Positions 2,376 to 50,308 of a DNA stretch of 64,000 bases are shown one piece after another. This stretch comes from an uncultured bacterium (lineage in GTDB: Bacteria > Auribacterota > JAFGBW01), in the NCBI GenBank assembly GCA_964443875.1, contig CAYUET010000002.1, positions 70,082-134,081 of the forward strand. Reading direction: 5' to 3'. Within the stretch, counting starts at the first letter, position 1, and every line of letters starts with the position of its first letter. Below the pieces are notes generated by a model. That model did no database searches. It was not told the origin of the DNA and was given only the letters and a program-made list of their open reading frames with translations. The translations under genes were made by a program, and so were the position numbers.

Positions 2376-2425
2376 AAAAATTGCTTAAAAGTATAGGCTT
2401 TAAAGAATTAAGAAAGGATAACCAT

Positions 2426-13960: not shown

Positions 13961-15226
13961 ATGACTTCTCTGGAAATCTGTTTCAGATGTCTGAAACACA
14001 GGGAGGTTGAAATATCACCCGATAAAAAATACTGTGTCTGCGGCGGGACTTTTCATTATTTTGATCATCCCTCAAGTCTTCGAATTCTTCATGCCGACAT
14101 GGATGCCTTTTTTGCCAATGTGGAAATTCATGACAACCCCGGGCTTAAAGGAAAACCTATCATTGTTGGGGGAAGTCCGAAAAGTCGAGGCGTCGTGTCG
14201 ACCTGTTCCTATGAGGCCCGAAAATTCGGTATTCATTCCTCCATGTCGCTTGCAAAGGCTTATACGCTTTGTCCCTCCGGAGTTTTCCTCCCGGTACGGA
14301 TGCAGCGTTATGCAGAAGTTTCCGCTCAGGTCTTTAAAATATTTGAATCCTTTACCCCTGAATATGAACCTTTAAGTGTTGATGAGGCCTTTCTCGATAT
14401 GAAAGGAACCGAAGGTCTGTTCGGACATCCTGTTGCGGCCGCTTTGAAATTGAAGCACAAGGTCAAAGAAAAAACCGGGATAACGGTTTCTGTCGGAGTT
14501 GCCCCCAATAAATTTTTAGCCAAGCTGGCTTCCGGAGAAAATAAGCCGGATGGCCTTTTTGTGGTCACCCCGGATTCCACAGACTCCTATCTCGACCGTT
14601 TGAGCATAGAAAATATGTGGGGCATAGGGAAAGCCACTTTGCCGGTGATGAAGGGAAACAGGATTAATACGATTGGAGACTTACGGCGCTGTTCTGAAGA
14701 AAAGCTCAAGAGCATTTTTGGAAATCAGTGGCAGCGTTTTTACAAGCTTTCACGGGGTGAGGATGACCGTAAGGTTGAAACAGAGTATGAGGCGGAGTCC
14801 ATAGGCAGGGAAACCACTCTGGAAAAGGATAGCTCAGATAAAGAGGAAATGAGGAAGATCCTCTGGGGGCTTTGTGAAAATGTTTCAAGACGGCTCTATA
14901 ATGATGGTGTAAGAGGAAAGAAAGTAACCTTGAAAATCAAAACAAGTCAGTTTATACTCATGACCCGTTCCCGGAAACTTTCCAACCCTGTTTATCTTGA
15001 TCTGGATATTTTTAACACAGTAAAGGACCTTCTGGAACAACTGGATTTAAGGGGGCTCAGGATAAGGCTTCTTGGTGTTTCGGTCTCTTGTTTCAAAAAA
15101 GAGGGGCCTGAGGAATTACTGCTCTTTGAAGACTCAAGGGAAATCCGCAAGGAAAAACTCAGCGAGGCCTTAAATAAGATCAAAGACAGGTTCGGGGATT
15201 CTGTGATTACCCGTGCTGTAAAGTAG
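13961..15226 (+). CDS. dinB: DNA polymerase IV with an N-terminal zinc-ribbon extension
   Basis: ILHADMDAFFANVEIHDNPGLKGKPIIVGG matches the DinB/UmuC palm. About 40 extra N-terminal residues carry CFRC...CVCGG. The RBS is GGAGGTGA. Confidence 0.9.
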   Translation: MTSLEICFRCLKHREVEISPDKKYCVCGGTFHYFDHPSSLRILHADMDAFFANVEIHDNPGLKGKPIIVGGSPKSRGVVSTCSYEARKFGIHSSMSLAKAYTLCPSGVFLPVRMQRYAEVSAQVFKIFESFTPEYEPLSVDEAFLDMKGTEGLFGHPVAAALKLKHKVKEKTGITVSVGVAPNKFLAKLASGENKPDGLFVVTPDSTDSYLDRLSIENMWGIGKATLPVMKGNRINTIGDLRRCSEEKLKSIFGNQWQRFYKLSRGEDDRKVETEYEAESIGRETTLEKDSSDKEEMRKILWGLCENVSRRLYNDGVRGKKVTLKIKTSQFILMTRSRKLSNPVYLDLDIFNTVKDLLEQLDLRGLRIRLLGVSVSCFKKEGPEELLLFEDSREIRKEKLSEALNKIKDRFGDSVITRAVK

Positions 15227-15533
15227 GGAGAGAAAGAAAGGGCATACTCGCCTGGGTCCTTTAAATGCCCTTATGTCTTAGTCTGAATTTTGCGCGCAGG
15301 CGTCAAATATTCAGGAGGCAACGTCAGTTTGATTCAGTCAAAACAGGCTTGCGCAGATAAAAGGTTGTTTTTTGTTTGGATGTAAGATTGAGTACAATTT
15401 GTACCATAAGATTGAAGTCGATATTAGGGCTGGAATGATTGATTTGTTAGCCTTTAAAAGGATTTGAGTTAATTTTTCATGCAATATTCGGGTTAGAGGT
15501 TAAGTTTTGCGGGGAAGTTAAAAACGTTAAGAT

Positions 15534-18500
15534 TTATTTGGAGTCCATGGAAGAAATCTGAAAATTTTTGAGAATCAAAGCACGGTTTTCCTGGGGCTGT
15601 TTTGTTTTTATTTTCCAGCGTTTGGGTCTGTCAGATTCACAAAGTCCAATCAGAGCAGTAATATTGGCTTCATCTTTCAGAGTCTTCGGGACAGGGATTA
15701 GATGTTCGAACTGGAGAATTCCATTCTTATCAAAATTTTTTGAATAGGGTGAGTGGATTTGAATGTCTTCCTGAAAAAGGAGCTCTCCTTTGGAATTTAA
15801 AAAATGGATGAATAGATTGAACGGCGGGAGTGTTTTCTGGAGACTTTTTCCGGAGCAGTAAAACATGAGATATTCACTGGGTTTGAGAAGATGAGAGGAA
15901 AAGGCGATTGTATTGATTTCTGCTTTTCCGTCAAACAGGGCGTTTACGGGGTGTTTTTGCCATCCTTTGGAATCAGGAAGGGAAGGGGGCTCTGGCAAAG
16001 GATTTGTCATTTCTGCTTCAATCTTTTTCAATGTGAGGGAATTCAGCATAAGCTCAGGAATACCGATCATTACCCGATCCGCTGATAATGTTTCTGAAAA
16101 AAGAAAATCTGTCTGAAAATCTGTTTTCCGGGCAATAAAGCCGTCTGCCCAGATCCACCGGTCGAGACACAGGGGGGTCTTTTTAAGAATATTTCCTTTG
16201 TTGAATAGGGTGATTTTCAGATCATTGAGTTTGATGAGATCAGGATTTCGAAGGCTGATCCGGATCTTTTTTAAAAGAGTGTCCGGCTTAAGGGGGTAGG
16301 AGAGCTGAATTTCGTGAAGGGAGGAGTCATAAAGAATCTGTGGATGGGTTAAACGGGTGAGAAACAGGGACGTTTTATCGGTAAGGGGGGCAAGAGCAGG
16401 CAGGGAAACATAGCTCCATCCTTGGGACTCGTGAACCGAATAAGGGAGATGATTGTCTGTAAAAAATTGTTTTAATCCATTGAGATGAATCGATTCGAGG
16501 AGGAATCCGTTTTCTCCGAAGGGATTGATCACTCTTTCGTTATAGTCCCAAAACAGATACCTGTCCCGGTAACAGGCTTTGTCCTGAATCAGCCGGGGAG
16601 TGGTTAATCCCGGAAGGTGTTTCTGGACGGAGGGAATGAGTGCGGGCGGAAGAAATACTTTTTCTTGAGGATTAAGGCTTTGGATCAGAGACAGGGCTTC
16701 TTTTTTATCGGGTTGAAGGGAGGCATGTTGTTTATAAACAAACAGTTCAGCGATTCCCCATGAATTTTTTCCGGAGAGAGTAAGACGTATTTGTCTGAGG
16801 GGGGTCTCTTTGAAGCGGATATCAATATGTCCGTTCGGAAGGAGACGTATATTACCGTTGAATTCCTGAAAAACAGGAATGTATCCCGGTATTTGTGCAA
16901 GGGTAAGCCATTGCCCGGCTTCCTGGGCTCCTTCCACGAGAATACCTTGAGGAATGGAGGTTACATCCGTTCCGGATACCAGCTCAATTCTGCAGAGGGC
17001 GACAGGAGTCTGACAGTTAAAAGTGAGAGAGGAGTTTTTTTCGGCGGGGGAGGTCCAGAGGGTTGAAAAATGGCGGTCCAGAAGATTTTGTCCAAAAGGC
17101 GCCTTTTTATTTTCCTGTATCGGAATAAGCAGGGCCGATATGTCTTCATAGGCATTGGGGGAAAAGGTGAAATCATGGAAAACCGTGTAGCTGCCCATGT
17201 CCCTCCGTATATAAGAGCAGACAAGAGATTTTAGCTGGGTTTCAAGAGCGTCTGGATTGGGGAGATTCATCCGGCTATCCGTGATCAGGGCAGTTTTTGA
17301 AGCGTCATCCACAAGTTTTAAAAATTCGATGTTTCTGAAACCGCCGAAGTCCGAACAGATAATTTTCTTTTTACTTTCAAAGGAAACCGACTGGGCGGTT
17401 GTGAAATGAGCGTAGGCCTTTGAAATGCCCTGTTGCTCCAGATAACGGATGACTTCTTCCGGGCCTTCCATGCGTTTTTTATCATGGGCGTAAAACTGCA
17501 TGAAGGCCAGATTATAGGGAAGGACAAGAACTATGAGTATGGAAAGGAAGGGAATGTGGAGGACAGGTTTCCAGGCGGCAAATCTTTCAAAAGCGGATAG
17601 AAAGGGAATGCCCAGAAAAACATAGAGAGGCAGCCCGTAGCGGCTTAGTTGTTCCCTGCCGTTCTGGCTGAAGATGAAGCATGCGGCGAAAAAAAGAAGT
17701 CCTGAAAAAAGCATCAAGGAAACAGCATTAGTCTCCTGTCTGTTTTTGAGGCGGTTGCGGAATGAGAAGAAAAAGGACATAAAGGCCGAAATCCACACCA
17801 GCGATGTAAGTCCTGTAATAAGAGGGCCCCAGGGGTGATGGGCGAATTCCCGGCAGCGGCCGAAGAGCATGGAGGATATGTTGATGAAATTGACAAGCTG
17901 GTCGAAGTATACGGAGAAATGGGCAAGTCCCCCTTTCATACGGAAGGTAAGCCACCCGTTTTCAATATTTCCCATCCACCAGGGAAGGCTTCCGATGAAG
18001 AAGAAAAGACTCAGAAGAACCAGGGCTTTTCCCCGGTATTCGGAACGAAGCCGGATGAAAAAGACAAGGGCTCCTGCCCCCAGAAAGGGAAGGATCATCA
18101 TAAAGGTCCAGAAGCCTATCCCGGCAATCAGTCCGGCAATGGAGATTGAAACGAGGGGAAAGGAAGCCTCGGAGTTTTTCAGGGCCTGAAGAAGAAGGAT
18201 GAGAAACCAGGTTCCCAGAGCAATAGTTTGCATATAGCCGCCCATAGGGGAGAGACTGTATTCATTAAAAACGAGAGGCGGAATTGTCAGAAAAAGGGCG
18301 GTATAGACGGGAAAACGGTTTCCGTTCATTTTACGTGAAAGAATGAGCATTCCGGCTATGAGAAAGAGGGAGGAGATGAAGGGGGACATGCGGAGCCAGA
18401 AGGTATCCGTGGAAAACAGGGAAAAGAAAAACGCGGCAAGGATCGATTCCAGGGACCCCAGATAGGGGGCCCCCCAGTAAAAGGGTGAAAAACGGCCTTC

Positions 18501-18635
18501 GAGCATATCCATGGCCATGAGCCCGGGAACCGCTTCGTCATAATAGACGTGTCCGAAGCAGGGAAGTTTCCAGAAGATGAAACGAAAGGCAAGGCCTGTT
18601 GCAATCAGAGCAAGTGAAGAGACCCATTTCAACAT
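15534..18635 (-). CDS. GT-C family glycosyltransferase, ArnT/PMT-like (GT39/GT83-type) with a large C-terminal periplasmic domain
   Basis: About 1,033 aa. TM1 is followed by YYDEAVPGLMAMDMLEGRFSPFYWGAPYLGSLE, carrying the DE motif and a PYxxKPPL-like loop of ArnT/PMT. It has at least 10 predicted TM helices. The roughly 550-aa C-terminus is a discoidin-like beta-rich domain. The ATG at 18635 lies 7 nt after the ubiA stop. The longer ORF from 18677 uses GTG and overlaps ubiA. Confidence 0.75.
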   Translation of the reverse strand: MLKWVSSLALIATGLAFRFIFWKLPCFGHVYYDEAVPGLMAMDMLEGRFSPFYWGAPYLGSLESILAAFFFSLFSTDTFWLRMSPFISSLFLIAGMLILSRKMNGNRFPVYTALFLTIPPLVFNEYSLSPMGGYMQTIALGTWFLILLLQALKNSEASFPLVSISIAGLIAGIGFWTFMMILPFLGAGALVFFIRLRSEYRGKALVLLSLFFFIGSLPWWMGNIENGWLTFRMKGGLAHFSVYFDQLVNFINISSMLFGRCREFAHHPWGPLITGLTSLVWISAFMSFFFSFRNRLKNRQETNAVSLMLFSGLLFFAACFIFSQNGREQLSRYGLPLYVFLGIPFLSAFERFAAWKPVLHIPFLSILIVLVLPYNLAFMQFYAHDKKRMEGPEEVIRYLEQQGISKAYAHFTTAQSVSFESKKKIICSDFGGFRNIEFLKLVDDASKTALITDSRMNLPNPDALETQLKSLVCSYIRRDMGSYTVFHDFTFSPNAYEDISALLIPIQENKKAPFGQNLLDRHFSTLWTSPAEKNSSLTFNCQTPVALCRIELVSGTDVTSIPQGILVEGAQEAGQWLTLAQIPGYIPVFQEFNGNIRLLPNGHIDIRFKETPLRQIRLTLSGKNSWGIAELFVYKQHASLQPDKKEALSLIQSLNPQEKVFLPPALIPSVQKHLPGLTTPRLIQDKACYRDRYLFWDYNERVINPFGENGFLLESIHLNGLKQFFTDNHLPYSVHESQGWSYVSLPALAPLTDKTSLFLTRLTHPQILYDSSLHEIQLSYPLKPDTLLKKIRISLRNPDLIKLNDLKITLFNKGNILKKTPLCLDRWIWADGFIARKTDFQTDFLFSETLSADRVMIGIPELMLNSLTLKKIEAEMTNPLPEPPSLPDSKGWQKHPVNALFDGKAEINTIAFSSHLLKPSEYLMFYCSGKSLQKTLPPFNLFIHFLNSKGELLFQEDIQIHSPYSKNFDKNGILQFEHLIPVPKTLKDEANITALIGLCESDRPKRWKIKTKQPQENRALILKNFQISSMDSK

Positions 18636-18642
18636 GATGGAT

Positions 18643-19644
18643 TTACCATTGCCAGAGAGGCATGATTTGATTCTCACTGATGTTGAAAAGGGAGTAAAGG
18701 CCTGGAATTTTACACAGCATCAGGACAATAAAGAGAATGAGACAGAACAGTGTGAAAAAAACAAAATTACGTTCCCTGTAGAGTTTCTCCGGTGCCTGAA
18801 CCGGGCTGTCCGTTTTAAAGCCCAGATAGAGGTAGTAGGTGAGAAATCCTGAGAGGAAAGGAAGCATGAGAATGAGTTCCAGGTGGTAGCGCACCATGAA
18901 AATGCCGGCAAAAAGGCTTCCGGTGACAGCATAGAAGAAGACACTGAAAAGAAGCCGTTCAGGGGTGTAGTGCCGAAAGGATTTTCGGTAGGCTCCGGCT
19001 TTTCCTTCCTGTTTGATTTCCCGAAGTTCCGCAAAGCGCTTGAGGGCCATAAAAAAGGCCCCGTACATCCAGTAGGCGATGAAAAGGGATACCGGAGGAA
19101 AACGGTCCGGAATCAGAATAAACCAGCCCATCACGAGACGGATGGGGTTGTTTATGGATTCGGAAAGGACATCCAGGTAAGGGATTTCCTTGGTGCGGAA
19201 AGGGGAAATATTGTAGAACATTCCCATGATCCACAGGGAGACTGCGGCCCAGCCAAAGGGAATATTGATAGAGAAGGAGAGGCTTATGCCCACACAGGCA
19301 AGAAAGATCCATTCGGCATAACCCAGGGGAATATTGATCAGACCGGAGGGTACGGGTCTGAATTTTTTTTTGGGATGATAAAGGTCAAAGGGGGCATCCA
19401 GGATTTCATTAATCACATAGTTGCTTGAAGCCACAAGGCAGATGGCTGAAACGGAGAGCAGAAGTTTTAAGGGCGAAATGACTGAAAAATCCGGAATCAG
19501 AAAAAAAGCCAGAATAATGCCCAGCCCCATGAAAACGTTTTTAAACCAGTGATCCGGTCTTGCGATATCCACATAGGGCCCGAATTTTCCGAGTGTTTTA
19601 TAGCGGGGAATGGAGGATTTTTCACTTCCATCAATGGTTTTCAT
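18643..19644 (-). CDS. UbiA-family polyprenyl-phosphate 5-phosphoribosyltransferase (DPPR-synthase type)
   Basis: 333 aa with 8-9 TM helices. NEILDAPFDLYHPKKKFRPVPSG matches the NDxxDxxxD...HPxKRFRPIAAG signature of mycobacterial Rv3806c-type decaprenyl-phosphate phosphoribosyltransferases. A second Asp-rich region is present. Confidence 0.75.
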   Translation of the reverse strand: MKTIDGSEKSSIPRYKTLGKFGPYVDIARPDHWFKNVFMGLGIILAFFLIPDFSVISPLKLLLSVSAICLVASSNYVINEILDAPFDLYHPKKKFRPVPSGLINIPLGYAEWIFLACVGISLSFSINIPFGWAAVSLWIMGMFYNISPFRTKEIPYLDVLSESINNPIRLVMGWFILIPDRFPPVSLFIAYWMYGAFFMALKRFAELREIKQEGKAGAYRKSFRHYTPERLLFSVFFYAVTGSLFAGIFMVRYHLELILMLPFLSGFLTYYLYLGFKTDSPVQAPEKLYRERNFVFFTLFCLILFIVLMLCKIPGLYSLFNISENQIMPLWQW

Positions 19645-19809
19645 GATAAGCCCCGGACCTTTCTAAAAAGGATGTTTCCTTGAAGTATAAAAATGTTGTT
19701 TATCAACACTTTTTTCAGATACGTCAATAAAATTATATGCTGGAATTCGCTTTACAAAAAGTTCTGTTTGAAGGAATCTTAAAAACTAATTTTTAAGGAA
19801 TTTAAATAA
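19645..19809. promoter_or_regulatory. AT-rich divergent promoter region between the ubiA-GT-C operon and the GT-C paralog
   Basis: The spacer is 165 bp with no ORF and contains TGTTG-N5-CAACA. The downstream ATG has an AAGGAA RBS. Confidence 0.4.
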
Positions 19810-22800
19810 ATGTTTTTGTTCAAACGGAGCCTTTTCTGGACCTCAGCAGCAATTCTTGTCTTTGTTTTTACACGGCTGTTTTTCATCTCTCTTCCCTCCT
19901 ATGCGGTCACTTATTTTGATGAGGCGATCACCGGGCTTATGGGGATGCATCTTTTAAGGGGTGAGTTTCCCGTATTTTACTGGGGTTGTCCCTATCTAGG
20001 GCCTCTGGAGGCCCTGTTTGCAGCTCTTTTTTTTCTTATCACCGGAGAAGCCTCCACTTTTGCCTTAAGGCTTTCCCCACTCCTGGCCTACCTGATCTAT
20101 GGAGGAGCCCTTTTAGCCCAGGCAAGACTCACCATGAAAAAGGAAGTCTTTTATTTCTGTTTTCTGTTTCTGATTTTTCCGCCTTATTATCTTCTTCATT
20201 TTTCTCTGACCGCCATCGGGGATTACATGAATACGGTCATGCTTGGAAGTTTAATGATACTTCTGACCTCTATCATGATTACGGATGAAAAACGGCTGAA
20301 TTTACGGAATGTTTTTCTTCTGGGGCTTCTTTCGGGTTTTTCCTTCTGGACTTTTATTCAGACTGCGCCTGTGATTCTGGCCTGCCATTTGATTCTGTTT
20401 CTCCGGATGCGTTTCAGCTATCCGGGAATCCCTCTGCTTCTTTCCTTTCTGGGATTTGTTCTGGGGAGTCTTCCCTTCTGGATGTGGAACTGGAATAACG
20501 ATTTTTTAACCTTTACCATGAAAGTCACGGGGGCTGACCCGGGAAGTTTTCCGGGTCATGCCCGTAATTATTATGAGGTGTTAAAACTACTTCTGGGTAA
20601 CTATTCCCTTCAGCCCCAGGGATACAGGACTTTTACCGCAGGCCTTGCCGCTTTTTTTCTGATCGCGGTTCCCTGTCTTCTTTTTTCCGGACAGGGTCTT
20701 TTTGCGAGACTTAAGAAACCTGATCCTCTTCTCCTTTTGATTGTTGCTTTTACCGGAAACTCTCTGGCTTATATTGTAAGCTCGCATGGAGATCTTAAAC
20801 TCCCGCGTTATCTTCTTCCTCTTTATTCCTCGCTTCCTGTTCTTCTGCCTTTTGCCTTATCTTTTCTGCTTAAAGGGCGTTATTTTTTTGTTTTTTCAAC
20901 AGGGCTTCTTCTTTTGATGAGCCTTCCTGAAAATATCCGCTTTACGAAAAGTAATCTCGATCCTGCCTATATCAATCGTTTCACGCCCAGAAGAGCGGAA
21001 TTAAATGAGTTTTTTGATTATCTGGGACAGAATAATATCCGGCATCTTTATGGGGCCTACTGTTTTACTCAGATATTGACTTTTGAGTCCAAAAAATCGG
21101 TGACTGCTGCGGATTATTCGGGTTTCAGAAATATGAGTTACCTGCGGGAGGCGGACAATGACCCTCGCACCGGGCTTGCCGCAGAGGATCTTCTGGGGGC
21201 TCCGGACAGTGATTCCCTGGAATCCACAATCAAGCTTTTGACGAGGAAATATCAGAAGAAAAAATGCGGCCGTTTTACTGTTTTTCATGATTTTAAAATT
21301 AATGACGCCTCTGATGCCCCTTTGCCCTCCGGCAGCATTCAGAGTATTTCGGTATGTGAACAGCAGGAACGGAAAAATTTACTGAATGACAGGATTTTTG
21401 AAACCTTCTGGGAAACGCAAAAGCCCATGACCGGCAAAGAGTGGATAACTTTGACTTTTGTGAAACCGGTGAGGGTGACGCGGCTTCTTCTGATTCCGGG
21501 GACGGATTATCTTGCCTTTCCAAGAGGGCTTCGCATGGAAGGAACGGATGTCCGCGGGCACAGGATCAAGCTTGCAGAGGCGAAATCCATTTGCGGATCT
21601 TTCAAGGTTTTTCATGGAAAGCCAAGGCTTTTTGGGAAAGGGGAAATTGAGATCCGTCTGGACAAAGAAACAGAGCTTTCTTCTGTCACACTTTTTCAGA
21701 CCGGGGAGGATCGCTTTTTTCATTGGAAAATAGGGGAGATTATCCCTTTTGAACAGAAACAGGAAAATTCTCTTTTAATCAGCTCTGTGCCTGAAATTCC
21801 GGAGGACAGATTTCTTGTTACAACCCCGGAGCTATATCTCAAACATTATTATAAAACTTTCCATGATCAGCAAACCATTCCTCTTTATCCGCCCATGCTG
21901 ACTTATCTGCACTGGTCAAGGGTATGGGACTATGACACTCCCAAAAGGTATTTGAATATGGATTCTGATCTTTTGTTTATTTTGCCGCCTGATCATTGGG
22001 AGTATTTTAAAAATTATCTTCAGTCCCATGAAATAGCCTATAGTCTGAAGGAAACGCACAACCTCGTTACTGTGCAAACACAGTCCTGCGGGATTCCGAA
22101 AGATCGAAAATACATCCCTTTGCTGCCCCGGACAAAATGGGCAGAGACTTTTAATCAAAATCCGGTATTTGAAGCTTTTTTTCCTGAGCCTGTCTTGCTT
22201 TATGGTTTTAAACTGGCAAAACCGCCATGTGGATTTCAGTGGAAAGATCTGATGATTGAGATTCTGGATTCGGGCGGAGAATGGAAGTCTGTTGCTTTTA
22301 AAACTCATGAGGCCTATTGGACGGATGAAGTGATTCTGGAATCCTGCCGTGAGGGCTCAGAGGTACATTTTGAAAAACCGGTTCCTGCTCAAAAAGTTCG
22401 GTTTATTCTTCATGGCCTTTACAAAACACCTCAGGATCTTGAGGATTTCTGCAAATCAGAGATTATTGGGGATTTTAAATCCGGGAAGGACGAGTATCTG
22501 GTAAAAAAGACTGAGGCTTCGGGTTCTGTGGCAATTTTTGAAGAAACCCTTTCTCTGGATGATTTTTCTCTTAATCCTTCAAACCCTCATCCGGGCGGGT
22601 ATCTTGAGGTTCATGCCCGTTTTTCATGGCTTAAAAAGAAGAGAAAGAATATGGCTTCTACTTTTTTCCTTCATGCCCTGGACTCCACAGGGTATAAAGT
22701 TTTTCAGCTGGACAGAGATCTGGATTTTGGTAGAAACCCTCAGGATTTAAAAAAACCTTTTGAGAGGAAATATTTTATAAAAATCCCTGAATCCATTAAG

Positions 22801-22950
22801 GAGAAGTCTTTAAGGGTGATTATCGGGCTTTATGATCAGCGAACGGGTAAGCGTTCCAAGCCCTCTTCTTCTCATCCTGTCGACATGAGGTCTGTTGAGC
22901 TGGGGGAGATTTTTATTGCCCCTGATGTTCACAGACCAGAAGATCAGTGA
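19810..22950 (+). CDS. GT-C family glycosyltransferase, ArnT/PMT-like, paralog of 15534..18635
   Basis: 1,046 aa. YFDEAITGLMGMHLLRGEFPVFYWGCPYLGPLE aligns residue by residue with the paralog. Homology continues through the C-terminal domain (FESKKSV...YSGFRNMSYLRE versus FESKKKI...FGGFRNIEFLK). Confidence 0.75.
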   Translation: MFLFKRSLFWTSAAILVFVFTRLFFISLPSYAVTYFDEAITGLMGMHLLRGEFPVFYWGCPYLGPLEALFAALFFLITGEASTFALRLSPLLAYLIYGGALLAQARLTMKKEVFYFCFLFLIFPPYYLLHFSLTAIGDYMNTVMLGSLMILLTSIMITDEKRLNLRNVFLLGLLSGFSFWTFIQTAPVILACHLILFLRMRFSYPGIPLLLSFLGFVLGSLPFWMWNWNNDFLTFTMKVTGADPGSFPGHARNYYEVLKLLLGNYSLQPQGYRTFTAGLAAFFLIAVPCLLFSGQGLFARLKKPDPLLLLIVAFTGNSLAYIVSSHGDLKLPRYLLPLYSSLPVLLPFALSFLLKGRYFFVFSTGLLLLMSLPENIRFTKSNLDPAYINRFTPRRAELNEFFDYLGQNNIRHLYGAYCFTQILTFESKKSVTAADYSGFRNMSYLREADNDPRTGLAAEDLLGAPDSDSLESTIKLLTRKYQKKKCGRFTVFHDFKINDASDAPLPSGSIQSISVCEQQERKNLLNDRIFETFWETQKPMTGKEWITLTFVKPVRVTRLLLIPGTDYLAFPRGLRMEGTDVRGHRIKLAEAKSICGSFKVFHGKPRLFGKGEIEIRLDKETELSSVTLFQTGEDRFFHWKIGEIIPFEQKQENSLLISSVPEIPEDRFLVTTPELYLKHYYKTFHDQQTIPLYPPMLTYLHWSRVWDYDTPKRYLNMDSDLLFILPPDHWEYFKNYLQSHEIAYSLKETHNLVTVQTQSCGIPKDRKYIPLLPRTKWAETFNQNPVFEAFFPEPVLLYGFKLAKPPCGFQWKDLMIEILDSGGEWKSVAFKTHEAYWTDEVILESCREGSEVHFEKPVPAQKVRFILHGLYKTPQDLEDFCKSEIIGDFKSGKDEYLVKKTEASGSVAIFEETLSLDDFSLNPSNPHPGGYLEVHARFSWLKKKRKNMASTFFLHALDSTGYKVFQLDRDLDFGRNPQDLKKPFERKYFIKIPESIKEKSLRVIIGLYDQRTGKRSKPSSSHPVDMRSVELGEIFIAPDVHRPEDQ

Positions 22951-24493
22951 AAGTTTTGACCGGGACAAAGGTGCTTTCCGGGATTTCTGCAAAAAGGGTA
23001 TTCCAGTAATACATGCCTCCGTTCCATAAGCCCGGAAGCTCAAGAGCTTTCAGGTTTCTGCCTTCATGCGATTTAATCGAGATGATCCCGCCTTCCGGTT
23101 CCGAAAAATGAGTCAGATCATAGGCCTCCCCTTTGTAGTTTTTGAGGCCCAGGACCATGAAAACCGGATTAAAATGTGTGGAGCTTCTGACCATGGACAT
23201 TACTTTATCGGAGTTCAGATCGATCTGTGAAGTTTCCACAATCTGAAGAGAACGTGATTTATCGTGGTTCTCCACCCAGAAGGGGAGTCCTCCGATTTCT
23301 CCCTTGTTGCGCACAAGTCCGCAAATCCTCACGGGTCGGTTGAGTGTATGGCGCAGATAGTTTATCTGGTTTTCAAGGCTTTCAGAATGAAGAGCGGGCG
23401 GCGGTGTAAGGGAGAGTGTTTCTTTGATGAATTTAACAATCTGCTGCACATGGCTTTTATCGGGTTTGGTGAGATCCAGTTCTTTTTGATAATTGAAAAT
23501 TTTTTCCTGGATTCCGAGTAAAAGTCCGGCAAGCATTCTCATGTTTTGAATGGAAGGTGTTTTCGCTGAAAGGGTCTGCACATTATCAATGTTTTTAATG
23601 AAGACAATATCGTACTCCCCGGAGACTTGGCTGAGATTCCGGAGAAGAGCGCCGTGTCCCGCAGGGCGTAAGACAAGGCGGCCTTTTGAATCACGGAAAG
23701 GCTTGTTTTCCAGATCCAGAGCGAGGGTATCGGAAGATTTGGATTGAACGGAGAAGCTGACGGAGCTGGGCCGCAGGACCTCTGTTTCGGCGTTTTTACG
23801 GCACTGAATATATTCTTTCAGGGGATCTAAAAAATCTTCGGAAATAGTGAAATGTACATGGGAATTTTTTGGAAAGGGACTGCAGGTTAAAGCAGCTTCG
23901 AAAAGATGTTCATCCACAGGGCTTAAAGATTGCTGGTCATTTTTATGAAATTTGATCAGGGCCTTGGGTATTTTTCCGTAGTTCAGTCCTTTGGGGGTCA
24001 GGAGGATATCGAGTATTTCTCTATAGTGTTCGCGGGAGATGAGTTCTTTTACTGTTTTTCCTGTTTGTTCCCTGAGACAAGCCTGGAGGTCTTCAAAAAA
24101 GGCGAATTTCTGAATGTTGTTCAGAAATTGTTCAAGGCTCAAAAAGTCCGGATCTTTGTTGATGACTCCGTGGTAGAAGACGGAACGGCTGATGGAGGGA
24201 TAGCTGTTGAGCAGGGAAAGCAGGGGTTTGAACATCCGGGAAGCCGCGCCGGAGGCGGGGATAAAGTGGAGCCAGAGTTTTGACTGGATTTCTCTTTTAA
24301 AATAGTTTTCAGCATCCTGAATTTCTGCAGGATTCAGCATTACAATGCCTTCCCCAGGCGTACAGGGCTTGATTAGTTTTAACGGTGAGAATCCGCGGGT
24401 AATTGTTTGAATCTGGGATTCAATCTGGGGCATATTTAATCCGTGTTCTTCAACTTGCCGGATATCAGCCTGAGAAAAGGAATAGTCTGTCAA
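22913..24493 (-). CDS. UDP-sugar pyrophosphorylase-like nucleotidyltransferase (UDPGP-like, resembles DUF4301 family)
   Basis: 526 aa. IPASGAASRMF parallels the LNGGLGTxMG motif of UGPase/UAP family enzymes. LRPAGHGALLRNL parallels their PDGNGGLYRAL motif. The 3' end overlaps the convergent GT-C gene by 38 nt. Confidence 0.5.
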   Translation of the reverse strand: MTDYSFSQADIRQVEEHGLNMPQIESQIQTITRGFSPLKLIKPCTPGEGIVMLNPAEIQDAENYFKREIQSKLWLHFIPASGAASRMFKPLLSLLNSYPSISRSVFYHGVINKDPDFLSLEQFLNNIQKFAFFEDLQACLREQTGKTVKELISREHYREILDILLTPKGLNYGKIPKALIKFHKNDQQSLSPVDEHLFEAALTCSPFPKNSHVHFTISEDFLDPLKEYIQCRKNAETEVLRPSSVSFSVQSKSSDTLALDLENKPFRDSKGRLVLRPAGHGALLRNLSQVSGEYDIVFIKNIDNVQTLSAKTPSIQNMRMLAGLLLGIQEKIFNYQKELDLTKPDKSHVQQIVKFIKETLSLTPPPALHSESLENQINYLRHTLNRPVRICGLVRNKGEIGGLPFWVENHDKSRSLQIVETSQIDLNSDKVMSMVRSSTHFNPVFMVLGLKNYKGEAYDLTHFSEPEGGIISIKSHEGRNLKALELPGLWNGGMYYWNTLFAEIPESTFVPVKTFTDLLVCEHQGQ

Positions 24494-24687
24494 AGCGGTT
24501 TCCTTTTGGATGTTGAAAAATAATATAAAGATCCCTCTGTCAAAGAGTCAAGAAAGAAAGAAGAAATCAGTGTTCAATGTAAAGATGCTTATGAATTGAA
24601 TTTCTATTGCTTTGTTGTTTTTTGGGTAATATAAAAATTAAAAAAATGAATGTATAAAAAATACAAAATATAATTATTTTTATTAAA

Positions 24688-24710
24688 AAATGTAATAAAA
24701 AATTACATTT
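24688..24710. promoter_or_regulatory. Perfect 9-bp inverted repeat (AAATGTAAT-N5-ATTACATTT), a candidate operator
   Basis: It lies in a 308-bp AT-rich region upstream of the pilin-like operon. A related TGTAATGTATTTT follows at about 24766. Confidence 0.45.
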
Positions 24711-24840
24711 TTAGACCATAAAAGCCTTAAATGTTAATATTATGTTGTTTTTTTGAAAAAAATATTGTAATGTATTTTTTGATGATGTTGATCAGAATTT
24801 AATGAATGGCAGGGATCTTAAGAAAGAGGAGCTGAAAAGG

Positions 24841-26229
24841 ATGAAAACAACAAAAAGATTATCTGTTAAAGGGAGTGCGCTGATTGTATCTATTATTTTT
24901 TCAACCCTTATCGGGATGGGGACTGTTGCGCTTCAGAATTTTCAATACCTGACACACAAGACGAACCATAAATCTTTTGAGGGTAATAAAGCCCGCTATA
25001 TGGCGGAAGCTGGTATTATGCTTGCCCTTGATGAGCTTAATAACCAGACTTCCTCCCCTTTTTCCGGAGCCGGGGATTTTTACTGGGCTTCTTCAGGCGG
25101 TAATATTTATACCCTCTCCCGTTCGGATATCGGGAGTGTGAATGTGACGGTTGATTATACAGACCCCAATTCCGTGGTGATTAAAAGTTATGGATTCTAT
25201 CAGAGTGTAAGAAAAGGTTTAGAAGTTAAGGCTATTAAGGCAGGCTCTTCAGCCATTAATCCCATTTTCCCGGGAGCCATTGCCGCCCAGTCCGACATTG
25301 TGACCATGAATTCTTTTACCGTGGATTCCTTTGCAAATGGGGTCTATGACGCTCTTCATCCGGGCTACAACGGGCATGTGTTTACCAAAGATGACAGTAT
25401 CAATTTAAAATCAGGAACCATTGTCAGAGGTCATGTTTACGCCCCTCCAAGTCCTGTTCCGGTTTTCAATACCGGAGAAAATTCCAACGGTAATGTGTAC
25501 TGGACCGCTGCAGATGAAACTGCAGCACATAATTGCGGCGGGAGTACAGGGGTTTTTACAGAGTTTAAACCGGTCGCTATTCCTCCTCATCTTTTAATGA
25601 CAGGCTCGCCTACTGCAGTTCTGTCAAGCGGGGGGAGTTATGGAAGCGGTCATTATACAGGGGCAACGGGTCTTGGAAACTTGACTTTTACCGGCGGTTT
25701 TTATAAAATAGATGGGGATATGGCTCTTGGCAACAGCAAGGTGCTGACCATTAAAGGAAACAGTGATATCTATATCACAGGAGACTTGTCTCTGGGGAAC
25801 GGAGCGATGATAATCAATTATACCCTGAAAGCGGATGGATCTGATCCTGACACCTTGCCTGACGTGGATAAGGTTTATACCCTGAGAATTTATGTGGACG
25901 GCGGACTCACCTTTTCTCAGGGCAATGAAGTGAATATGTACTGCAATTATGATGTCACCAAGCTTCAGCTTTACGGATGCGGGAACGGCTATTTTGCAAC
26001 CCCAGCTAAAAAAATCAATATTAAAAACGGAGGGTCATTTTTCGGATTTGTCTATGCCCCGTATTATGAGGTGGAATTTAATAATGCCAATGAGGTTTTC
26101 GGCGCCTTTGCCTCGTATCAGATTATTCCGAAAAACGGATCAAAGATTCATTTTGATGAACGTTTATGGGGCTTTGTGGACGGGGTGGCCCCGGATAAAT
26201 ACGGATTAAGCGGATGGGAGGAAATATGA
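24841..26229 (+). CDS. PilX-like minor pilin (type IV pilus or pseudopilus assembly protein, PilX_N domain)
   Basis: The N-terminus KGSALIVSIIFSTLIGMGTVALQN...KARYMAEAGIMLALDEL fits the PilX N-terminal domain. The ATG at 24841 has an AGAGGAG RBS. An alternative upstream ATG lies at 24802. Confidence 0.65.
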   Translation: MKTTKRLSVKGSALIVSIIFSTLIGMGTVALQNFQYLTHKTNHKSFEGNKARYMAEAGIMLALDELNNQTSSPFSGAGDFYWASSGGNIYTLSRSDIGSVNVTVDYTDPNSVVIKSYGFYQSVRKGLEVKAIKAGSSAINPIFPGAIAAQSDIVTMNSFTVDSFANGVYDALHPGYNGHVFTKDDSINLKSGTIVRGHVYAPPSPVPVFNTGENSNGNVYWTAADETAAHNCGGSTGVFTEFKPVAIPPHLLMTGSPTAVLSSGGSYGSGHYTGATGLGNLTFTGGFYKIDGDMALGNSKVLTIKGNSDIYITGDLSLGNGAMIINYTLKADGSDPDTLPDVDKVYTLRIYVDGGLTFSQGNEVNMYCNYDVTKLQLYGCGNGYFATPAKKINIKNGGSFFGFVYAPYYEVEFNNANEVFGAFASYQIIPKNGSKIHFDERLWGFVDGVAPDKYGLSGWEEI

Positions 26230-26421
26230 AGAAGACAAACCAGACGCATTATTTGTTTAAAAGCGGATTTCACCCGAATATGGACCGGCATTGCAAATAT
26301 TCGGGAGCCAGGGTCAGGCCTATGCCGCATAGGACTGGCATGCGTAAAAAATAATCGCTTTTAAAAAAATAATAAGAGTGATCTGTGCCGTTTTACCTTT
26401 TAAACCTGAAAGGTCGAAACC

Positions 26422-26880
26422 ATGGGGATATTATGTAATCATCACGATTCCAGGATCCGGATTAAGGGATTTTCCCTGATCGAACTCCTGATCGCCATTT
26501 TTATATTTTTTCTGATTTTTTCAGGAGTCATGAAAAGTCTTGCCTCTATTTTCACTGTTCAAAAGGATTCCCGTGAACTGGCGATCGCCTCTCAGATTCT
26601 AGGTGATATTGCCGAAAAAATCACCTATATGAGAAATACGGCCGGATGGGATGTGATTGATTCTTCCACCCTGGTTTTTAACTCAACGACGGTTGCTGAA
26701 TTGAATTCTCTCCCCGGGAGTTCGGTCAATGTTGCAGTTGTACCTTATAAGGATGCATCCGGCGCAGATACGAATACTTTGAAAAGGATTACGATTACGC
26801 TGAATTGGACTTCCAAAAATGGGAAAGCAAAATCAGAGGCCTTTGAAATGGTGTTGTCAAAACCGCCGTCAGGAATATGA
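26422..26880 (+). CDS. Prepilin-type N-terminal cleavage/methylation domain protein (PilV-like pseudopilin)
   Basis: KGFSLIELLIAIFIFFLIF is a class III signal (G|FxLIE) followed by a hydrophobic helix. The protein is 152 aa. Confidence 0.7.
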   Translation: MGILCNHHDSRIRIKGFSLIELLIAIFIFFLIFSGVMKSLASIFTVQKDSRELAIASQILGDIAEKITYMRNTAGWDVIDSSTLVFNSTTVAELNSLPGSSVNVAVVPYKDASGADTNTLKRITITLNWTSKNGKAKSEAFEMVLSKPPSGI

Positions 26881-26884
26881 GTTT

Positions 26885-27508
26885 ATGAAAAAAAGAGCTT
26901 TTTCAATAGTGGAGCTGCTTATTTCTCTGACTCTGCTTGCGGTGGTGAGTATAGGTTTTTTTTCTGCCTTCCGGTTTTACCAGGCAAGAGGGCTTGCCTC
27001 CACCCAGAAAGCGATAAATCTTAATGCCATGCGTTCCTCTCTGGATAAGCTCAAACAGGATCTCCTGATTTCCAAAGGGCTTTATAACAATGATTATTCA
27101 AAAGTTCACGCCGTGAATGACCCCTTTAATGTTTATCAGACAAAAGATAATCAGCTGATTGTCAAAATTCCTTCGGTTTATTCTACCAATGAGTTTATTG
27201 ATGTATCTGATCCGGAATATACCGATTATTATTTTTATTACTTATCCGGAGGCGAGCTCATCAGAAAAACATTCAGAAGCACAAAAACGGGTTCATCCCG
27301 GCCAACGGATGATTATATTCTTGCCAAAGGATTGAAATCCATTCGTTTCAGTGACGGATTACATACTTTAGGGACTCTTTCCAGCGAAAAGCTGTTGAGC
27401 ATCCGGCATATTCAGATTGTCATTACCGCAGAGGTGCAGAACACGCTGAACGGGACTCCCCAGACTGAAACATTGACCTTGAATGTTTCCTTTCGTAATT
27501 ATATGTAA
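26885..27508 (+). CDS. Prepilin-type N-terminal domain protein (PilW-like pseudopilin)
   Basis: MKKRAFSIVELLISLTLLAVVSIGFF has Ala rather than Gly at position -1. The ATG at 26885 was chosen over the longer ORF from 26819. Confidence 0.65.
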   Translation: MKKRAFSIVELLISLTLLAVVSIGFFSAFRFYQARGLASTQKAINLNAMRSSLDKLKQDLLISKGLYNNDYSKVHAVNDPFNVYQTKDNQLIVKIPSVYSTNEFIDVSDPEYTDYYFYYLSGGELIRKTFRSTKTGSSRPTDDYILAKGLKSIRFSDGLHTLGTLSSEKLLSIRHIQIVITAEVQNTLNGTPQTETLTLNVSFRNYM

Positions 27509-27684
27509 ATCGCCTTTTCTTTCTTTTTTTCCAGGATAAGTCTGCTTCCTTAACTCTTCGAAAACCTGATTGTTATGAAATGAAAATATTTTGCCTGTTG
27601 CCATTCCCATTGAACAGGGGATGTGGTAGCTTATTCTTTATATGCGGAAATTTATTTATAACGTAAAAACAGGTATCGGAATTC

Positions 27685-49879: not shown

Positions 49880-50308
49880 ATGAATGGAACTTATGCTTAC
49901 TACAATCCGTTAAGGGAGCTGCACTATTTCCAGAAACAGCTCAGTGATTTATTTGAGGATTTTAATGAGCGTCGTGGTGAATATCCCCTTGTGAATATCT
50001 GGGGGAATTCTGAAGGTCTTCTGGTCACAGCAGAGCTTCCTGGTCTGGATGTGAAAGACATTCAGCTGACCGCCAAAGGGGATACTCTGACTCTGGAAGT
50101 TGAAAAAAAATCAGAGGTCATTGATTCACAGGGGATCTGTATTCACAGGAATGAAAGGGAAGGTGATCCCTTTATTAAAACAGTGAGGCTTCCCTATGAA
50201 GTAAACGGGGAGAATATTTCCGCAAAATATTCCAATGGTGTTTTAAAGGTAACACTGCCTAGGGCAGAAGCGGGAAAACCGAGAAAAATAACCGTAACAC
50301 AAGAATAA
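49880..50308 (+). CDS. Small heat-shock protein (Hsp20/alpha-crystallin family), 1 of 3
   Basis: It has an alpha-crystallin domain (LVTAELPGLDVKDIQLTAKGDTLTLEV...GVLKVTLPR). The RBS is AAAGGAG. Confidence 0.85.
   Translation: MNGTYAYYNPLRELHYFQKQLSDLFEDFNERRGEYPLVNIWGNSEGLLVTAELPGLDVKDIQLTAKGDTLTLEVEKKSEVIDSQGICIHRNEREGDPFIKTVRLPYEVNGENISAKYSNGVLKVTLPRAEAGKPRKITVTQE

What the first reader, a model, noticed from the sequence alone, without database searches (positions are those of the whole stretch)
15534..27508. Candidate lipid-linked pentofuranosyl glycosylation locus next to a pilin-like operon
A UbiA-family protein is translationally coupled (7-nt gap) to a roughly 1,033-aa ArnT/PMT-like GT-C glycosyltransferase. 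The UbiA protein has the Rv3806c-type signature (NEILDAPFD...HPKKKFRPVPSG), that of decaprenyl-phosphate 5-phosphoribosyltransferase, the enzyme that commits to polyprenyl-P-ribose/arabinose donors in Corynebacterineae. A paralogous 1,046-aa GT-C is transcribed divergently. A UDPGP-like nucleotidyltransferase and a PilX/PilV/PilW-like prepilin cluster follow immediately.

It is established that GT-C enzymes use polyprenyl-phosphate-linked sugars. ArnT transfers Ara4N, Emb/Aft transfer Araf from DPA, and PMTs O-mannosylate proteins. The P. aeruginosa GT-C TfpW arabinofuranosylates type IV pilins using a DPA pathway with an Rv3806c homolog.

The arrangement here suggests a system that builds a polyprenyl-P-pentofuranose donor and transfers it in the periplasm. 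The adjacent pilins are obvious candidate substrates. The inferred non-actinobacterial context, and the lack of DprE1/DprE2 epimerase genes in the window, would make the chemistry ribofuranosyl or otherwise undescribed.
Basis: partly seen in the sequence, partly recalled or inferred. Interest (0 to 1): 0.85.

Follow-up and report, generated by a model that had tools for sequence, protein, structure and literature searches.

The report
Lipid-linked ribose glycosylation gene cluster
An uncultured bacterium (probably Candidatus Auribacterota) carries an enzyme predicted to load ribose phosphate onto a membrane lipid, coupled to two giant membrane glycosyltransferases; this looks like a variant of a sugar-decoration pathway described in 2024, and nothing ties it to the nearby pilin-like genes.

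Summary
The core observation holds. A 333-aa UbiA-family gene (18643-19644, -) ends 7 nt before a 1,033-aa gene (15534-18635, -). A full-length paralog of 1,046 aa (19810-22950, +) is transcribed divergently.

The UbiA protein is not a quinone or heme prenyltransferase. Its only sequence match among solved structures is M. tuberculosis Rv3806c. It keeps 9 of 11 residues that bind PRPP or Mg in Rv3806c. In 56 of 72 related loci a HAD phosphatase gene abuts the UbiA gene.

The best reading is a module that adds a pentofuranose, probably ribofuranose, outside the cytoplasm. This is the kind of pathway described by Kelly et al. (PNAS 2024), so the chemistry is not undescribed.

It differs from that pathway in three ways:
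- The GT-C family is a large uncharacterised one that is not otherwise found next to UbiA (0 of 50 genome loci).
- There are two GT-C paralogs.
- No phosphatase or flippase gene lies in the 64-kb window.

The pilin link rests on proximity alone. A convergent gene separates the two clusters, and no prepilin motifs occur around 53 related loci. The "UDPGP-like" gene matches Pfam DUF4301 only.

The parts
18643..19644 (-). UbiA-superfamily gene (333 aa), predicted polyprenyl-phosphate 5-phosphoribosyltransferase (PPPRS/DPPRS-like, in a clade of its own)
   Evidence: Pfam PF01040, E 1e-21. Best NCBIfam models are PRK08238 (HAD-UbiA) and DPPR synthase, at 59-77 bits against at most 41 bits for any other prenyltransferase, but all far below the equivalog cutoffs. 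The only PDB sequence hit is 8j8j Rv3806c, E 2e-12. R29, K35, Y76, N79, D83, K93, R96, Y144 and K152 match the Rv3806c PRPP/Mg residues and are invariant in 31 relatives. AF2 model pLDDT 90.9; top Foldseek hit is 8j8j.
15534..18635 (-). GT-C-A (1,033 aa): N-terminal multi-helix GT-C catalytic domain, small alpha/beta domain, CBM32-like domain and C-terminal beta-rich domains. It starts 7 nt after the UbiA stop codon.
17436..18635 (-). GT-C-A residues ~1-400: transmembrane GT-C core, with the conserved Asp33 in the motif YYDEA after the first helix
16716..17153 (-). GT-C-A residues ~495-640: CBM32 / F5-8 type C (discoidin)-like beta-sandwich, predicted to be extracytoplasmic
19810..22950 (+). 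GT-C-B (1,046 aa): full-length paralog of GT-C-A, transcribed divergently from the UbiA/GT-C-A operon
   Evidence: BLASTP 27% identity over 1,061 columns, E 1e-96; same YFDEA motif after TM1. Weak F5_F8_type_C hit at residues 521-565.
19645..19809 (.). 165-bp divergent intergenic region between the UbiA and GT-C-B genes (presumed divergent promoters)
   Evidence: ORF coordinates. The promoter scan over 15000-27800 found no more sites than shuffled sequence, so no promoter is claimed.

Best explanation
The three genes form the core of a system that adds a pentofuranose outside the cytoplasm, of the kind defined by Kelly et al. 2024.

Proposed steps:
1. The UbiA-type enzyme transfers 5-phosphoribose from PRPP to a polyprenyl phosphate at the cytoplasmic face. 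This is inferred from homology and conserved PRPP-binding residues.
2. A phosphatase removes the 5-phosphate. In 78% of related loci this is a HAD gene abutting the UbiA gene. Here it is not in the window and must be encoded elsewhere.
3. An unidentified flippase, also not in the window, exposes polyprenyl-P-ribofuranose on the outer face.
4. The two paralogous GT-C enzymes transfer the pentofuranose to extracytoplasmic acceptors. Each has a predicted CBM32-like carbohydrate-binding domain and further beta-rich domains. The acceptors are most likely envelope or surface glycans, with the two paralogs differing in acceptor or linkage.

No epimerase gene accompanies the locus, so ribofuranose is the default sugar.

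Shown: gene arrangement, family and fold assignments, residue conservation, and the neighbourhood statistics of relatives. Inferred: every enzymatic step, the sugar and the acceptor.
For: UbiA is of the PRTase type:
- The only PDB sequence hit is Rv3806c.
- phmmer gives 50-70 bits to Rv3806c, Rhodococcus and Legionella DPPRS, against 3-15 bits to E. coli UbiA, CyoE and MenA. In an NJ tree it falls in a clade sister to the DPPRS clade, apart from the three E. coli enzymes.
- 9 of 11 residues that bind PRPP or Mg in Rv3806c (PMC10994848) are conserved and invariant in the clade.
- It shares the KR(Y/F)AEL loop with DPPRS.
- The top structural hit is 8j8j.

Clade context:
- A HAD gene abuts the UbiA gene in 56 of 72 loci.
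- UbiA-HAD-GtrA operons occur on Rhizobium and Rhodobacter plasmids.
- A HAD-UbiA fusion, P0090, is 52% identical. This is the architecture of the biochemically proven C. youngae ORF15.

GT-C:
- Fold matches, with the conserved Asp after TM1.
- A CBM-bearing GT-C is what the proven system uses.

Coupling and precedent:
- 7-nt gap on the same strand.
- The same minimal DPPRS-then-GT-C pair exists in Legionella adelaidensis.
- PMT_2 GT-Cs directly follow this UbiA clade in 6 of 50 loci.
Against: - No phosphatase (HAD or PAP2) and no flippase candidate (GtrA, SMR or MATE) was found anywhere in the 64-kb window. Two of the components needed are therefore missing in cis.
- The UbiA protein scores far below the NCBIfam DPPRS equivalog cutoffs (72 against 234 bits).
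- It lacks the equivalents of Rv3806c Gln135 and Tyr157.
- The NJ node joining its clade to DPPRS has only 52% bootstrap support.
- Fold alone barely separates Rv3806c from AfUbiA.
- Relatives of this GT-C family never have a UbiA gene within 10 kb (0 of 50). At least one sits next to GT2 and LPG_synthase_TM genes instead. The family as such is therefore not dedicated to pentofuranose donors.
- No biochemical data exist for any member of either clade.
Confidence: 0.6

Rival explanations
1. Pilin O-glycosylation system of the TfpW type. The GT-C enzymes pentofuranosylate the adjacent type IV pilin-like proteins, using the donor made by the UbiA enzyme.
For: Two prepilin N_methyl proteins and a DUF7305 protein lie 1.9-4.6 kb downstream of GT-C-B. 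By established knowledge, repeated in PMC11127046, P. aeruginosa uses an Rv3806c homolog to make the Araf donor for pilin O-glycosylation; that the transferase there is the GT-C enzyme TfpW is my own knowledge.
Against: The pilin-like genes form a different transcription unit, separated by the convergent DUF4301 gene. They resemble minor pilins or pseudopilins, and no major pilin gene lies next to a GT-C. The GT-Cs carry CBM32-like glycan-binding modules. No prepilin motif occurs in 783 kb flanking 53 loci of the same GT-C family. No DprE1 or DprE2 is in the window.
Confidence: 0.1
2. The adjacency is functional but the donor is not a pentofuranose. Alternatively, the GT-Cs use a hexose donor made elsewhere (polyprenyl-P-Man, -Glc or -GlcNAc from a GT2), as relatives of this GT-C family appear to do, and the UbiA-like enzyme serves another lipid pathway.
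Against: The 7-nt coupling of UbiA to GT-C-A. The PRPP-binding residues are invariant. The UbiA clade is strongly associated with HAD and GtrA genes. No GT2-type polyprenyl-phosphate glycosyltransferase was found next to the locus.
Confidence: 0.17
3. ArnT-like modification of lipid A or LPS core, with Ara4N or a related sugar whose biosynthetic genes lie elsewhere.
Against: There is no sequence similarity to ArnT or to the PF02366 and PF13231 models for the window proteins. No arn genes are in the window. The extra ~600 residues, including CBM32, are absent from ArnT. The operon partner is a PRTase-type UbiA, not ArnC.
Confidence: 0.05
4. The UbiA protein is an ordinary quinone, heme or chlorophyll prenyltransferase, and the neighbourhood is coincidental.
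For: Generic PF01040 membership. JGI auto-annotations call many relatives '4-hydroxybenzoate polyprenyltransferase'.
Against: NCBIfam scores are 18-28 bits for the heme O, UbiA, chlorophyll-synthase and EboC models, against 59-77 bits for the DPPRS-type models. phmmer gives 3-15 bits to E. coli UbiA, MenA and CyoE. There is no PDB sequence hit to any aromatic prenyltransferase at E<=0.01. The clade is embedded in polysaccharide loci with HAD, GT2, Wzy_C and PMT_2 genes.
Confidence: 0.03

Closest known systems
Three-component extracytoplasmic pentofuranose addition system (Citrobacter youngae O1 ORF15 PPPRS-PRP, ORF14 MATE flippase, ORF12 GT-C/GT136; Kelly et al., PNAS 2024, PMC11127046)
   Same: A UbiA-type PRPP-dependent polyprenyl-phosphate phosphoribosyltransferase sits next to a GT-C enzyme that carries an extracytoplasmic carbohydrate-binding module. 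With no epimerase present, Ribf is predicted. That paper's SI already lists variants with a separate PRP, different transporters and several GT-Cs.
   Different: There is no PRP/HAD domain or gene and no flippase gene in the 64-kb window. The PPPRS belongs to a separate clade. The GT-Cs are about 1,000 aa (ORF12 is 652 aa), with CBM32 and further domains, and belong to a family not otherwise linked to UbiA. There are two divergent paralogs. The organism is an uncultured Auribacterota-like bacterium and the acceptor glycan is unknown. GT136 membership could not be tested.
Mycobacterial DPA pathway (Rv3806c DPPRS, Rv3807c PAP2 phosphatase, DprE1/DprE2, Rv3789, Emb/Aft GT-C enzymes)
   Same: The predicted first committed reaction is the same. 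9 of 11 substrate-binding residues are shared with Rv3806c. GT-C enzymes are the consumers, and AftA, AftB and AftD are structural matches.
   Different: About 21-25% identity to Rv3806c. No PAP2, DprE1 or DprE2 here, so arabinofuranose is not predicted. The carrier lipid is probably not decaprenyl phosphate. The GT-Cs are not detectably related in sequence to Emb or Aft proteins.
Pseudomonas aeruginosa TfpW pilin arabinofuranosylation (group IV pilins, PA7/Pa5196)
   Same: A non-actinobacterial use of an Rv3806c homolog together with a GT-C. Pilin-like genes are in the vicinity.
   Different: By my own knowledge of that system, tfpW sits directly beside the major pilin gene and the pathway includes DprE1/DprE2 homologs. 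Neither applies here, and the GT-C family shows no conserved link to pilins.
ArnT (GT83) and PMT/PMT_2 (GT39-like) GT-C enzymes
   Different: The window proteins themselves match no Pfam GT-C model. They carry about 600 extra extracytoplasmic residues. The predicted donor differs.

Membership tests
UbiA superfamily (PF01040) | Score above the Pfam gathering threshold; nine-helix fold with an N/D-x-x-x-D motif in the first cytoplasmic loop | tested here: met
   77.9 bits against a cutoff of 34.2. NEILDAPFD at residues 79-87. AF2 model pLDDT 90.9; Foldseek TM 0.75 to UbiA-fold structures.
Polyprenyl-phosphate phosphoribosyltransferase (DPPRS/PPPRS, Rv3806c type) | Closer to characterised DPPRS than to aromatic or heme prenyltransferases | tested here: met
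   The only PDB sequence hit is 8j8j. NCBIfam gives 59-77 bits for DPPRS-type models against at most 41 bits for others. phmmer gives 50-70 bits against 3-15 bits, and the NJ tree places it sister to the DPPRS clade with 52% bootstrap support.
Polyprenyl-phosphate phosphoribosyltransferase (DPPRS/PPPRS, Rv3806c type) | Conservation of the residues that bind PRPP and Mg2+ in Rv3806c (R22, K28, Y70, N73, D77, K87, R90, Q135, Y138, K143, Y157; PMC10994848) | tested here: inconclusive
   9 of 11 are conserved (R29, K35, Y76, N79, D83, K93, R96, Y144, K152) and invariant in 31 clade members. Q135 aligns with Gly and Y157 with Asn. This rests on a pairwise HMMER alignment.
Polyprenyl-phosphate phosphoribosyltransferase (DPPRS/PPPRS, Rv3806c type) | Reaches the NCBIfam equivalog cutoff for decaprenyl-phosphate phosphoribosyltransferase | tested here: not met
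   71.8, 69.7 and 59.0 bits against cutoffs of 234, 207 and 474. PRK08238 gives 77 bits against 351. It is therefore not an ortholog of the curated families but a separate clade.
Polyprenyl-phosphate phosphoribosyltransferase (DPPRS/PPPRS, Rv3806c type) | PRPP-dependent formation of polyprenyl-P-ribose-5-P | not testable with these tools
   Needs an enzyme assay.
Three-component pentofuranose addition system (Kelly et al. 2024) | A phosphoribose phosphatase (HAD PRP domain or gene, or PAP2) accompanies the PPPRS | tested here: not met
   A HAD profile built from 55 neighbours of clade members found nothing in the six-frame translation of the window at E<=10. No HAD or PAP2 appeared in the Pfam scans. 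Relatives have an adjacent HAD in 56 of 72 loci.
Three-component pentofuranose addition system (Kelly et al. 2024) | A flippase gene (MATE, SMR or GtrA type) in the cluster | tested here: not met
   No GtrA homolog by phmmer at E<=1. No MATE, SMR or Polysacc_synt family in the Pfam scans of the window ORFs. No small hydrophobic ORF in the locus.
Three-component pentofuranose addition system (Kelly et al. 2024) | A GT-C glycosyltransferase next to the PPPRS, with an extracytoplasmic carbohydrate-binding module | tested here: met
   7-nt gap. GT-C fold and CBM32-like domain in the model.
GT-C fold glycosyltransferases | Multi-pass membrane core superposable on solved GT-C enzymes, with a conserved acidic residue at the start of the first extracytoplasmic loop | tested here: met
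CAZy GT83 (ArnT) / GT39 (PMT), as Pfam PF02366 / PF13231 | Sequence match to the family models | tested here: inconclusive
   The window proteins give no hit even at E<=1. Relatives P0002 and P0133 reach the PMT_2 threshold (41.5 and 26.9 bits against 26.1), and others fall just below it. The relationship is distant and transitive only.
CAZy GT136 (C. youngae ORF12) | Sequence similarity to ORF12 and its essential residues (D31, E34, H106, R349, Y350) | not testable with these tools
   No ORF12 sequence could be obtained. BK026208 and CP099034 are not in the collections. The window proteins do have D33-E34 after TM1 and an R332-Y333 pair (Y333 invariant), which is only suggestive.
TfpW-type pilin glycosylation | GT-C gene directly associated with a (major) pilin gene, and a conserved GT-C/pilin linkage | tested here: not met
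   The convergent DUF4301 gene intervenes. There are 0 prepilin motifs in 783 kb around 53 related GT-C loci.
   Only DUF4301 (579 bits) at E<=0.01. No NCBIfam family. No PDB sequence relative at E<=0.1. Fold not tested.

The most novel reading that the evidence does not exclude
The locus has no phosphatase or flippase gene in cis, and its GT-Cs come from a family otherwise unconnected to UbiA. It may therefore represent an uncharacterised route in a candidate phylum. One possibility is that the GT-Cs transfer ribose-5-phosphate, or an otherwise modified pentose, directly from the undephosphorylated lipid donor. Another is that they ribofuranosylate proteins, for example the neighbouring pilin-like proteins, rather than glycans. 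Either way this would give the first functional handle on a family of more than 1,000 clusters of ~1,000-aa GT-C enzymes.
Probability: 0.1. Interest if true: 0.75.

Novelty: new variant of a known kind. Interest (0 to 1): 0.4.

Why it matters
If the reading is right, it extends the lipid-linked pentofuranose pathway described in 2024 to an uncultured PVC-related candidate phylum. It also gives a first donor hypothesis for two members of a large, unannotated family of ~1,000-aa GT-C enzymes. That family has 1,177 clusters (at 50% identity) at E<1e-30, and no Pfam model matches the membrane domain of the two window proteins. The work also delimits a very conserved UbiA clade, 52-60% identical across phyla and usually paired with a HAD phosphatase. 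Public annotations name it inconsistently, as 4-hydroxybenzoate polyprenyltransferase or as DPPR synthase. The finding does not open new chemistry by itself. The pathway concept, ribofuranose as the default sugar, and the variability of accessory genes are all published.

Tried and rejected
- Sequence searches of the GT-C proteins against Pfam, NCBIfam and PDB found nothing for the membrane domain. A 52-sequence family profile against PDB found only F5/8C/CBM32 and TPR segments. The GT-C assignment therefore rests on structure prediction.
- The word-indexed homolog search found only 3 relatives. The exhaustive HMM search showed the family is in fact large.
- The first search for related loci attempt, with the 52-sequence alignment, failed for lack of a conserved stretch. 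The 4-sequence alignment worked.
- Four exact look-ups returned nothing (P0001, the DUF4301 protein and GT-C-B in the look-up of encoding contigs, NusA in the cluster table). The source record stayed unidentified, and taxonomy was inferred from NusA relatives.
- I tried to obtain GT136/ORF12 or ORF15 sequences from the loci listed in the Kelly SI. BK026208 and CP099034 are absent from the collections. NZ_CP032687 is present, but I did not locate its system.
- tblastn of the UbiA protein against phages and of the GT-C core against plasmids gave no match.
- The afdb50 fold library was unavailable.
- hhalign of the family profile against GT-Cs that neighbour UbiA genes elsewhere showed no or marginal similarity (Legionella GT39, Planctomycetota PMT_2, Lactococcus 533-aa protein).
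- Apparent ~740-aa 'GT-C-HAD fusions' upstream of UbiA in L060 and L066 were rejected as long-ORF artefacts of high-GC DNA.
- The promoter and terminator scan was uninformative, with counts like those in shuffled sequence.
- The extended-SDR gene at 2381-3367 was considered as an auxiliary epimerase. It is 12 kb away behind housekeeping genes and is a generic NDP-sugar dehydratase/epimerase.

Full report
**What is in the sequence.** On the minus strand, a 333-aa ORF (18643-19644) is followed after TAA-atccatc-ATG, a 7-nt gap, by a 1,033-aa ORF (15534-18635). An independent gene call on a Logan contig carrying the identical genes gives the same two products. The pair is bounded downstream by a convergent DinB-like gene (13961-15226, +). 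A 165-bp intergenic region separates the 333-aa gene from a divergently transcribed 1,046-aa ORF (19810-22950, +). The two large proteins are full-length paralogs (27% identity, E 1e-96). A DUF4301 gene (22913-24493, -) lies next, convergent with the 1,046-aa gene and overlapping it by 38 nt. Only after that does a plus-strand cluster begin: a DUF7305 protein (24802-26229) and two proteins with a prepilin N-methylation motif (26422-26880, 26819-27508). The best named NusA relatives are Candidatus Aureabacteria/Auribacterota (52-63% identity), so the context is indeed non-actinobacterial.

**The UbiA-family protein: sequence evidence.**
- It passes Pfam PF01040.
- Among NCBIfam models the four best are the HAD-UbiA model PRK08238 and three decaprenyl-phosphate phosphoribosyltransferase models, at 59-77 bits. 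The next prenyltransferase model scores 41 bits, and the heme O, UbiA, chlorophyll-synthase and EboC models score 18-28 bits. All hits are far below the equivalog cutoffs.
- The only solved structure found by sequence is M. tuberculosis Rv3806c (8j8j, E 2e-12).
- The Rv3806c structure paper (PMC10994848) lists the residues that bind PRPP and Mg2+. In the HMMER alignment, nine of eleven have identical counterparts here (R29, K35, Y76, N79, D83, K93, R96, Y144, K152). All nine are invariant in an alignment of 31 relatives. Gln135 and Tyr157 are not conserved.
- A crude NJ tree used E. coli UbiA, MenA and CyoE as comparators (fetched). It places the protein in a clade sister to the Rv3806c/Rhodococcus/Lactococcus/Legionella DPPRS clade (52% bootstrap). 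phmmer gives 50-70 bits to Rv3806c, Rhodococcus and Legionella DPPRS and 3-15 bits to the E. coli enzymes.
- The AF2 model (pLDDT 90.9) has 8j8j as its top Foldseek hit, though AfUbiA is nearly as good.

**The UbiA-family protein: genomic context of the clade.** The protein belongs to a very large clade; 6,482 of the 8,000 candidates scored had E<=0.001. The 120 relatives listed are 52-60% identical, and the few with a taxon name come from different phyla.
- In 83 loci of this clade, a HAD-family gene abuts or overlaps the 5' end of the UbiA gene in 56 of the 72 loci with enough upstream DNA.
- Rhizobium and Rhodobacter plasmids carry UbiA-HAD-GtrA or HAD-UbiA-GtrA operons.
- A 495-aa HAD-UbiA fusion is 52% identical (P0090).
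- A HAD phosphoribose phosphatase fused to a UbiA-type PPPRS is exactly the architecture of C. youngae ORF15. That enzyme was shown biochemically to make polyprenyl-P-Ribf from PRPP (PMC11127046).
- The genes immediately downstream in the clade are polysaccharide-type: GT2 in 11, Wzy_C in 7, Asn-synthase-like in 6 and PMT_2 GT-C in 6 of 50.

**The two large proteins.**
- By sequence they match no Pfam, NCBIfam or PDB entry in the membrane region.
- An exhaustive profile search shows they belong to a large family of mostly ~1,000-aa proteins: 7,055 hits at E<=1e-3 and 1,177 at E<=1e-30.
- Some family members just reach the Pfam PMT_2 threshold over residues ~60-240, and F5/8 type C over ~500-640.
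- An AF2 model of the 1,033-aa protein, built on 52 family sequences, has pLDDT 82.1 and pTM 0.80.
- An Asp just after the first helix (D33 in YYDEA) is at least 90% conserved, as expected for GT-C catalysis.

They are therefore GT-C enzymes with a CBM32-like module and further beta-rich extracytoplasmic domains. The fold does not point specifically to pentofuranosyl transfer.

**Is the pairing typical?** It is not, and this is the most distinctive feature.
- In 50 genome loci holding relatives of the GT-C family, none has a UbiA homolog within 10 kb. These loci come from Thermodesulfobacteriota/Desulfarculaceae, Kiritimatiellia, Verrucomicrobiota, Lentisphaerales and Thermoanaerobaculia.
- One relative sits beside GT2 and LPG_synthase_TM genes.
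- Conversely, the GT-Cs that neighbour UbiA genes elsewhere show no or marginal profile similarity to this family.
- The minimal two-gene layout itself has precedent. On a Legionella adelaidensis plasmid, a gene annotated as DPPRS is directly followed by a GT39 GT-C, with no phosphatase or flippase nearby.

**What is missing.** No HAD, PAP2, GtrA, MATE, SMR, DprE1 or DprE2 gene was found among the window ORFs scanned (all of at least 150 aa except overlapping shadow ORFs, plus five of 104-142 aa), nor by HAD and GtrA profile searches of the six-frame translation. The only sugar epimerase or dehydratase is a generic extended-SDR gene 12 kb away, behind housekeeping genes.

**Interpretation.** The best-supported model is a module that adds a pentofuranose, by default ribofuranose, outside the cytoplasm, as defined by Kelly et al. 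2024.
1. A PPPRS makes polyprenyl-P-5-phosphoribose from PRPP.
2. An unlinked phosphatase removes the 5-phosphate.
3. An unlinked flippase exposes the donor on the outer face.
4. Two CBM-bearing GT-C paralogs transfer the sugar to extracytoplasmic glycan acceptors.

I put this at about 0.6. The identity of the UbiA enzyme is the firmest step (about 0.8). That the GT-Cs use its product is inferred from the 7-nt coupling. The sugar and the acceptor are conjecture.

**The pilin hypothesis.** It rests only on proximity. The pilin-like genes form a separate unit behind a convergent gene and look like minor pilins or pseudopilins. No prepilin motif occurs in 783 kb around 53 related GT-C loci. I give it about 0.1.

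**The claim of undescribed chemistry.** It does not hold. Lipid-linked Ribf transfer by GT-C enzymes, with epimerases as optional add-ons, is published and reported as widespread. Variants with a separate PRP, different transporters and several GT-Cs are already listed.

**Verdict.** The locus is a new variant of a known kind of system. Moderate interest comes from three points: the unusual GT-C family, the apparent lack of phosphatase and flippase genes in cis, and the candidate-phylum host.

Noticed in passing
window 15534-18635 (-): The NCBI-derived protein for this gene is a 748-aa product (P0001) starting at internal Met286. It lacks most of the transmembrane GT-C core, including the conserved Asp33. 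The Logan gene call gives the full 1,033 aa. This is probably a start-site misannotation in the public record.
   Followed up: partly
L009-L058, L006-L008 (relatives of the GT-C family): The ~1,000-aa GT-C + CBM32 family is large (1,177 clusters at E<1e-30), and most members also carry a TPR segment. In 12 of 53 loci, similarity to an ~849-aa protein without any Pfam hit (L007:7047-9596) is found within the locus. It is nearly full-length in five loci, including L007 and L008, which hold the same gene. It may be a conserved partner, and it is absent from the window.
   Followed up: partly
L003-L005, L059-L138 (relatives of the UbiA gene): This UbiA clade is unusually conserved: the 120 relatives listed are 52-60% identical, and the few with a taxon name come from different phyla. 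It usually has an overlapping upstream HAD gene (56 of 72 loci). Source annotations name it inconsistently, as '4-hydroxybenzoate polyprenyltransferase' or 'decaprenyl-phosphate phosphoribosyltransferase'. Asn-synthase-like and Wzy_C genes are frequent downstream neighbours.
   Followed up: partly
window 22913-24493 (-): A 526-aa DUF4301 protein (Pfam 579 bits) has no NCBIfam family and no PDB sequence relative. It overlaps the 3' end of GT-C-B by 38 nt in convergent orientation. The only paper in the library that mentions DUF4301 is a rumen metaproteome study. Its function, and any link to the GT-C genes, is unknown.
   Followed up: partly
window 24802-27508 (+): The pilin-like cluster is a 475-aa DUF7305 protein with an N-terminal hydrophobic segment, then two prepilin N_methyl proteins whose ORFs overlap. 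No major pilin, prepilin peptidase or assembly ATPase was found among the window ORFs that were scanned.
   Followed up: partly
window 27685-31494 (+): A 1,269-aa protein with two CNNM transmembrane modules, and CBS-domain matches recorded for the first module, i.e. an apparent internal duplication of a CorC/HlyC-type transporter.
   Followed up: no
window 37354-38895 (+): A 513-aa protein made of two CDP-alcohol phosphatidyltransferase modules: PgsA-like at residues 57-221 and PssA-like at residues 269-433. It looks like a fused phospholipid synthase.
   Followed up: no
window 52744-60909 (+): A 2,721-aa protein with right-handed beta-helix/NosD, CarboxypepD_reg and SdrD_B domains. It is probably a giant surface protein and could be a glycosylation target.
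   Followed up: no
window 49880-52301 (+): Three tandem HSP20/alpha-crystallin genes followed by a DnaJ-like gene.
   Followed up: no
window 2381-3367 (+): An extended-SDR NDP-sugar dehydratase/epimerase, with best scores (below cutoff) to dTDP-glucose 4,6-dehydratase, LegB and GalE. The Ribf-to-Xylf epimerase of Kelly et al. is also GalE-like. Nothing links this gene, 12 kb away, to the locus.
   Followed up: partly
L146 (Legionella adelaidensis plasmid NZ_LR134420) and L147 (Lactococcus plasmid NZ_PP589792): Legionella carries a gene annotated as DPPRS directly followed by a GT39 GT-C, with no phosphatase or flippase. The Lactococcus plasmid carries a complete set: hypothetical 533-aa protein, then DPPRS, HAD-IB phosphatase and GtrA. 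Both are useful comparators for minimal and complete layouts.
   Followed up: partly
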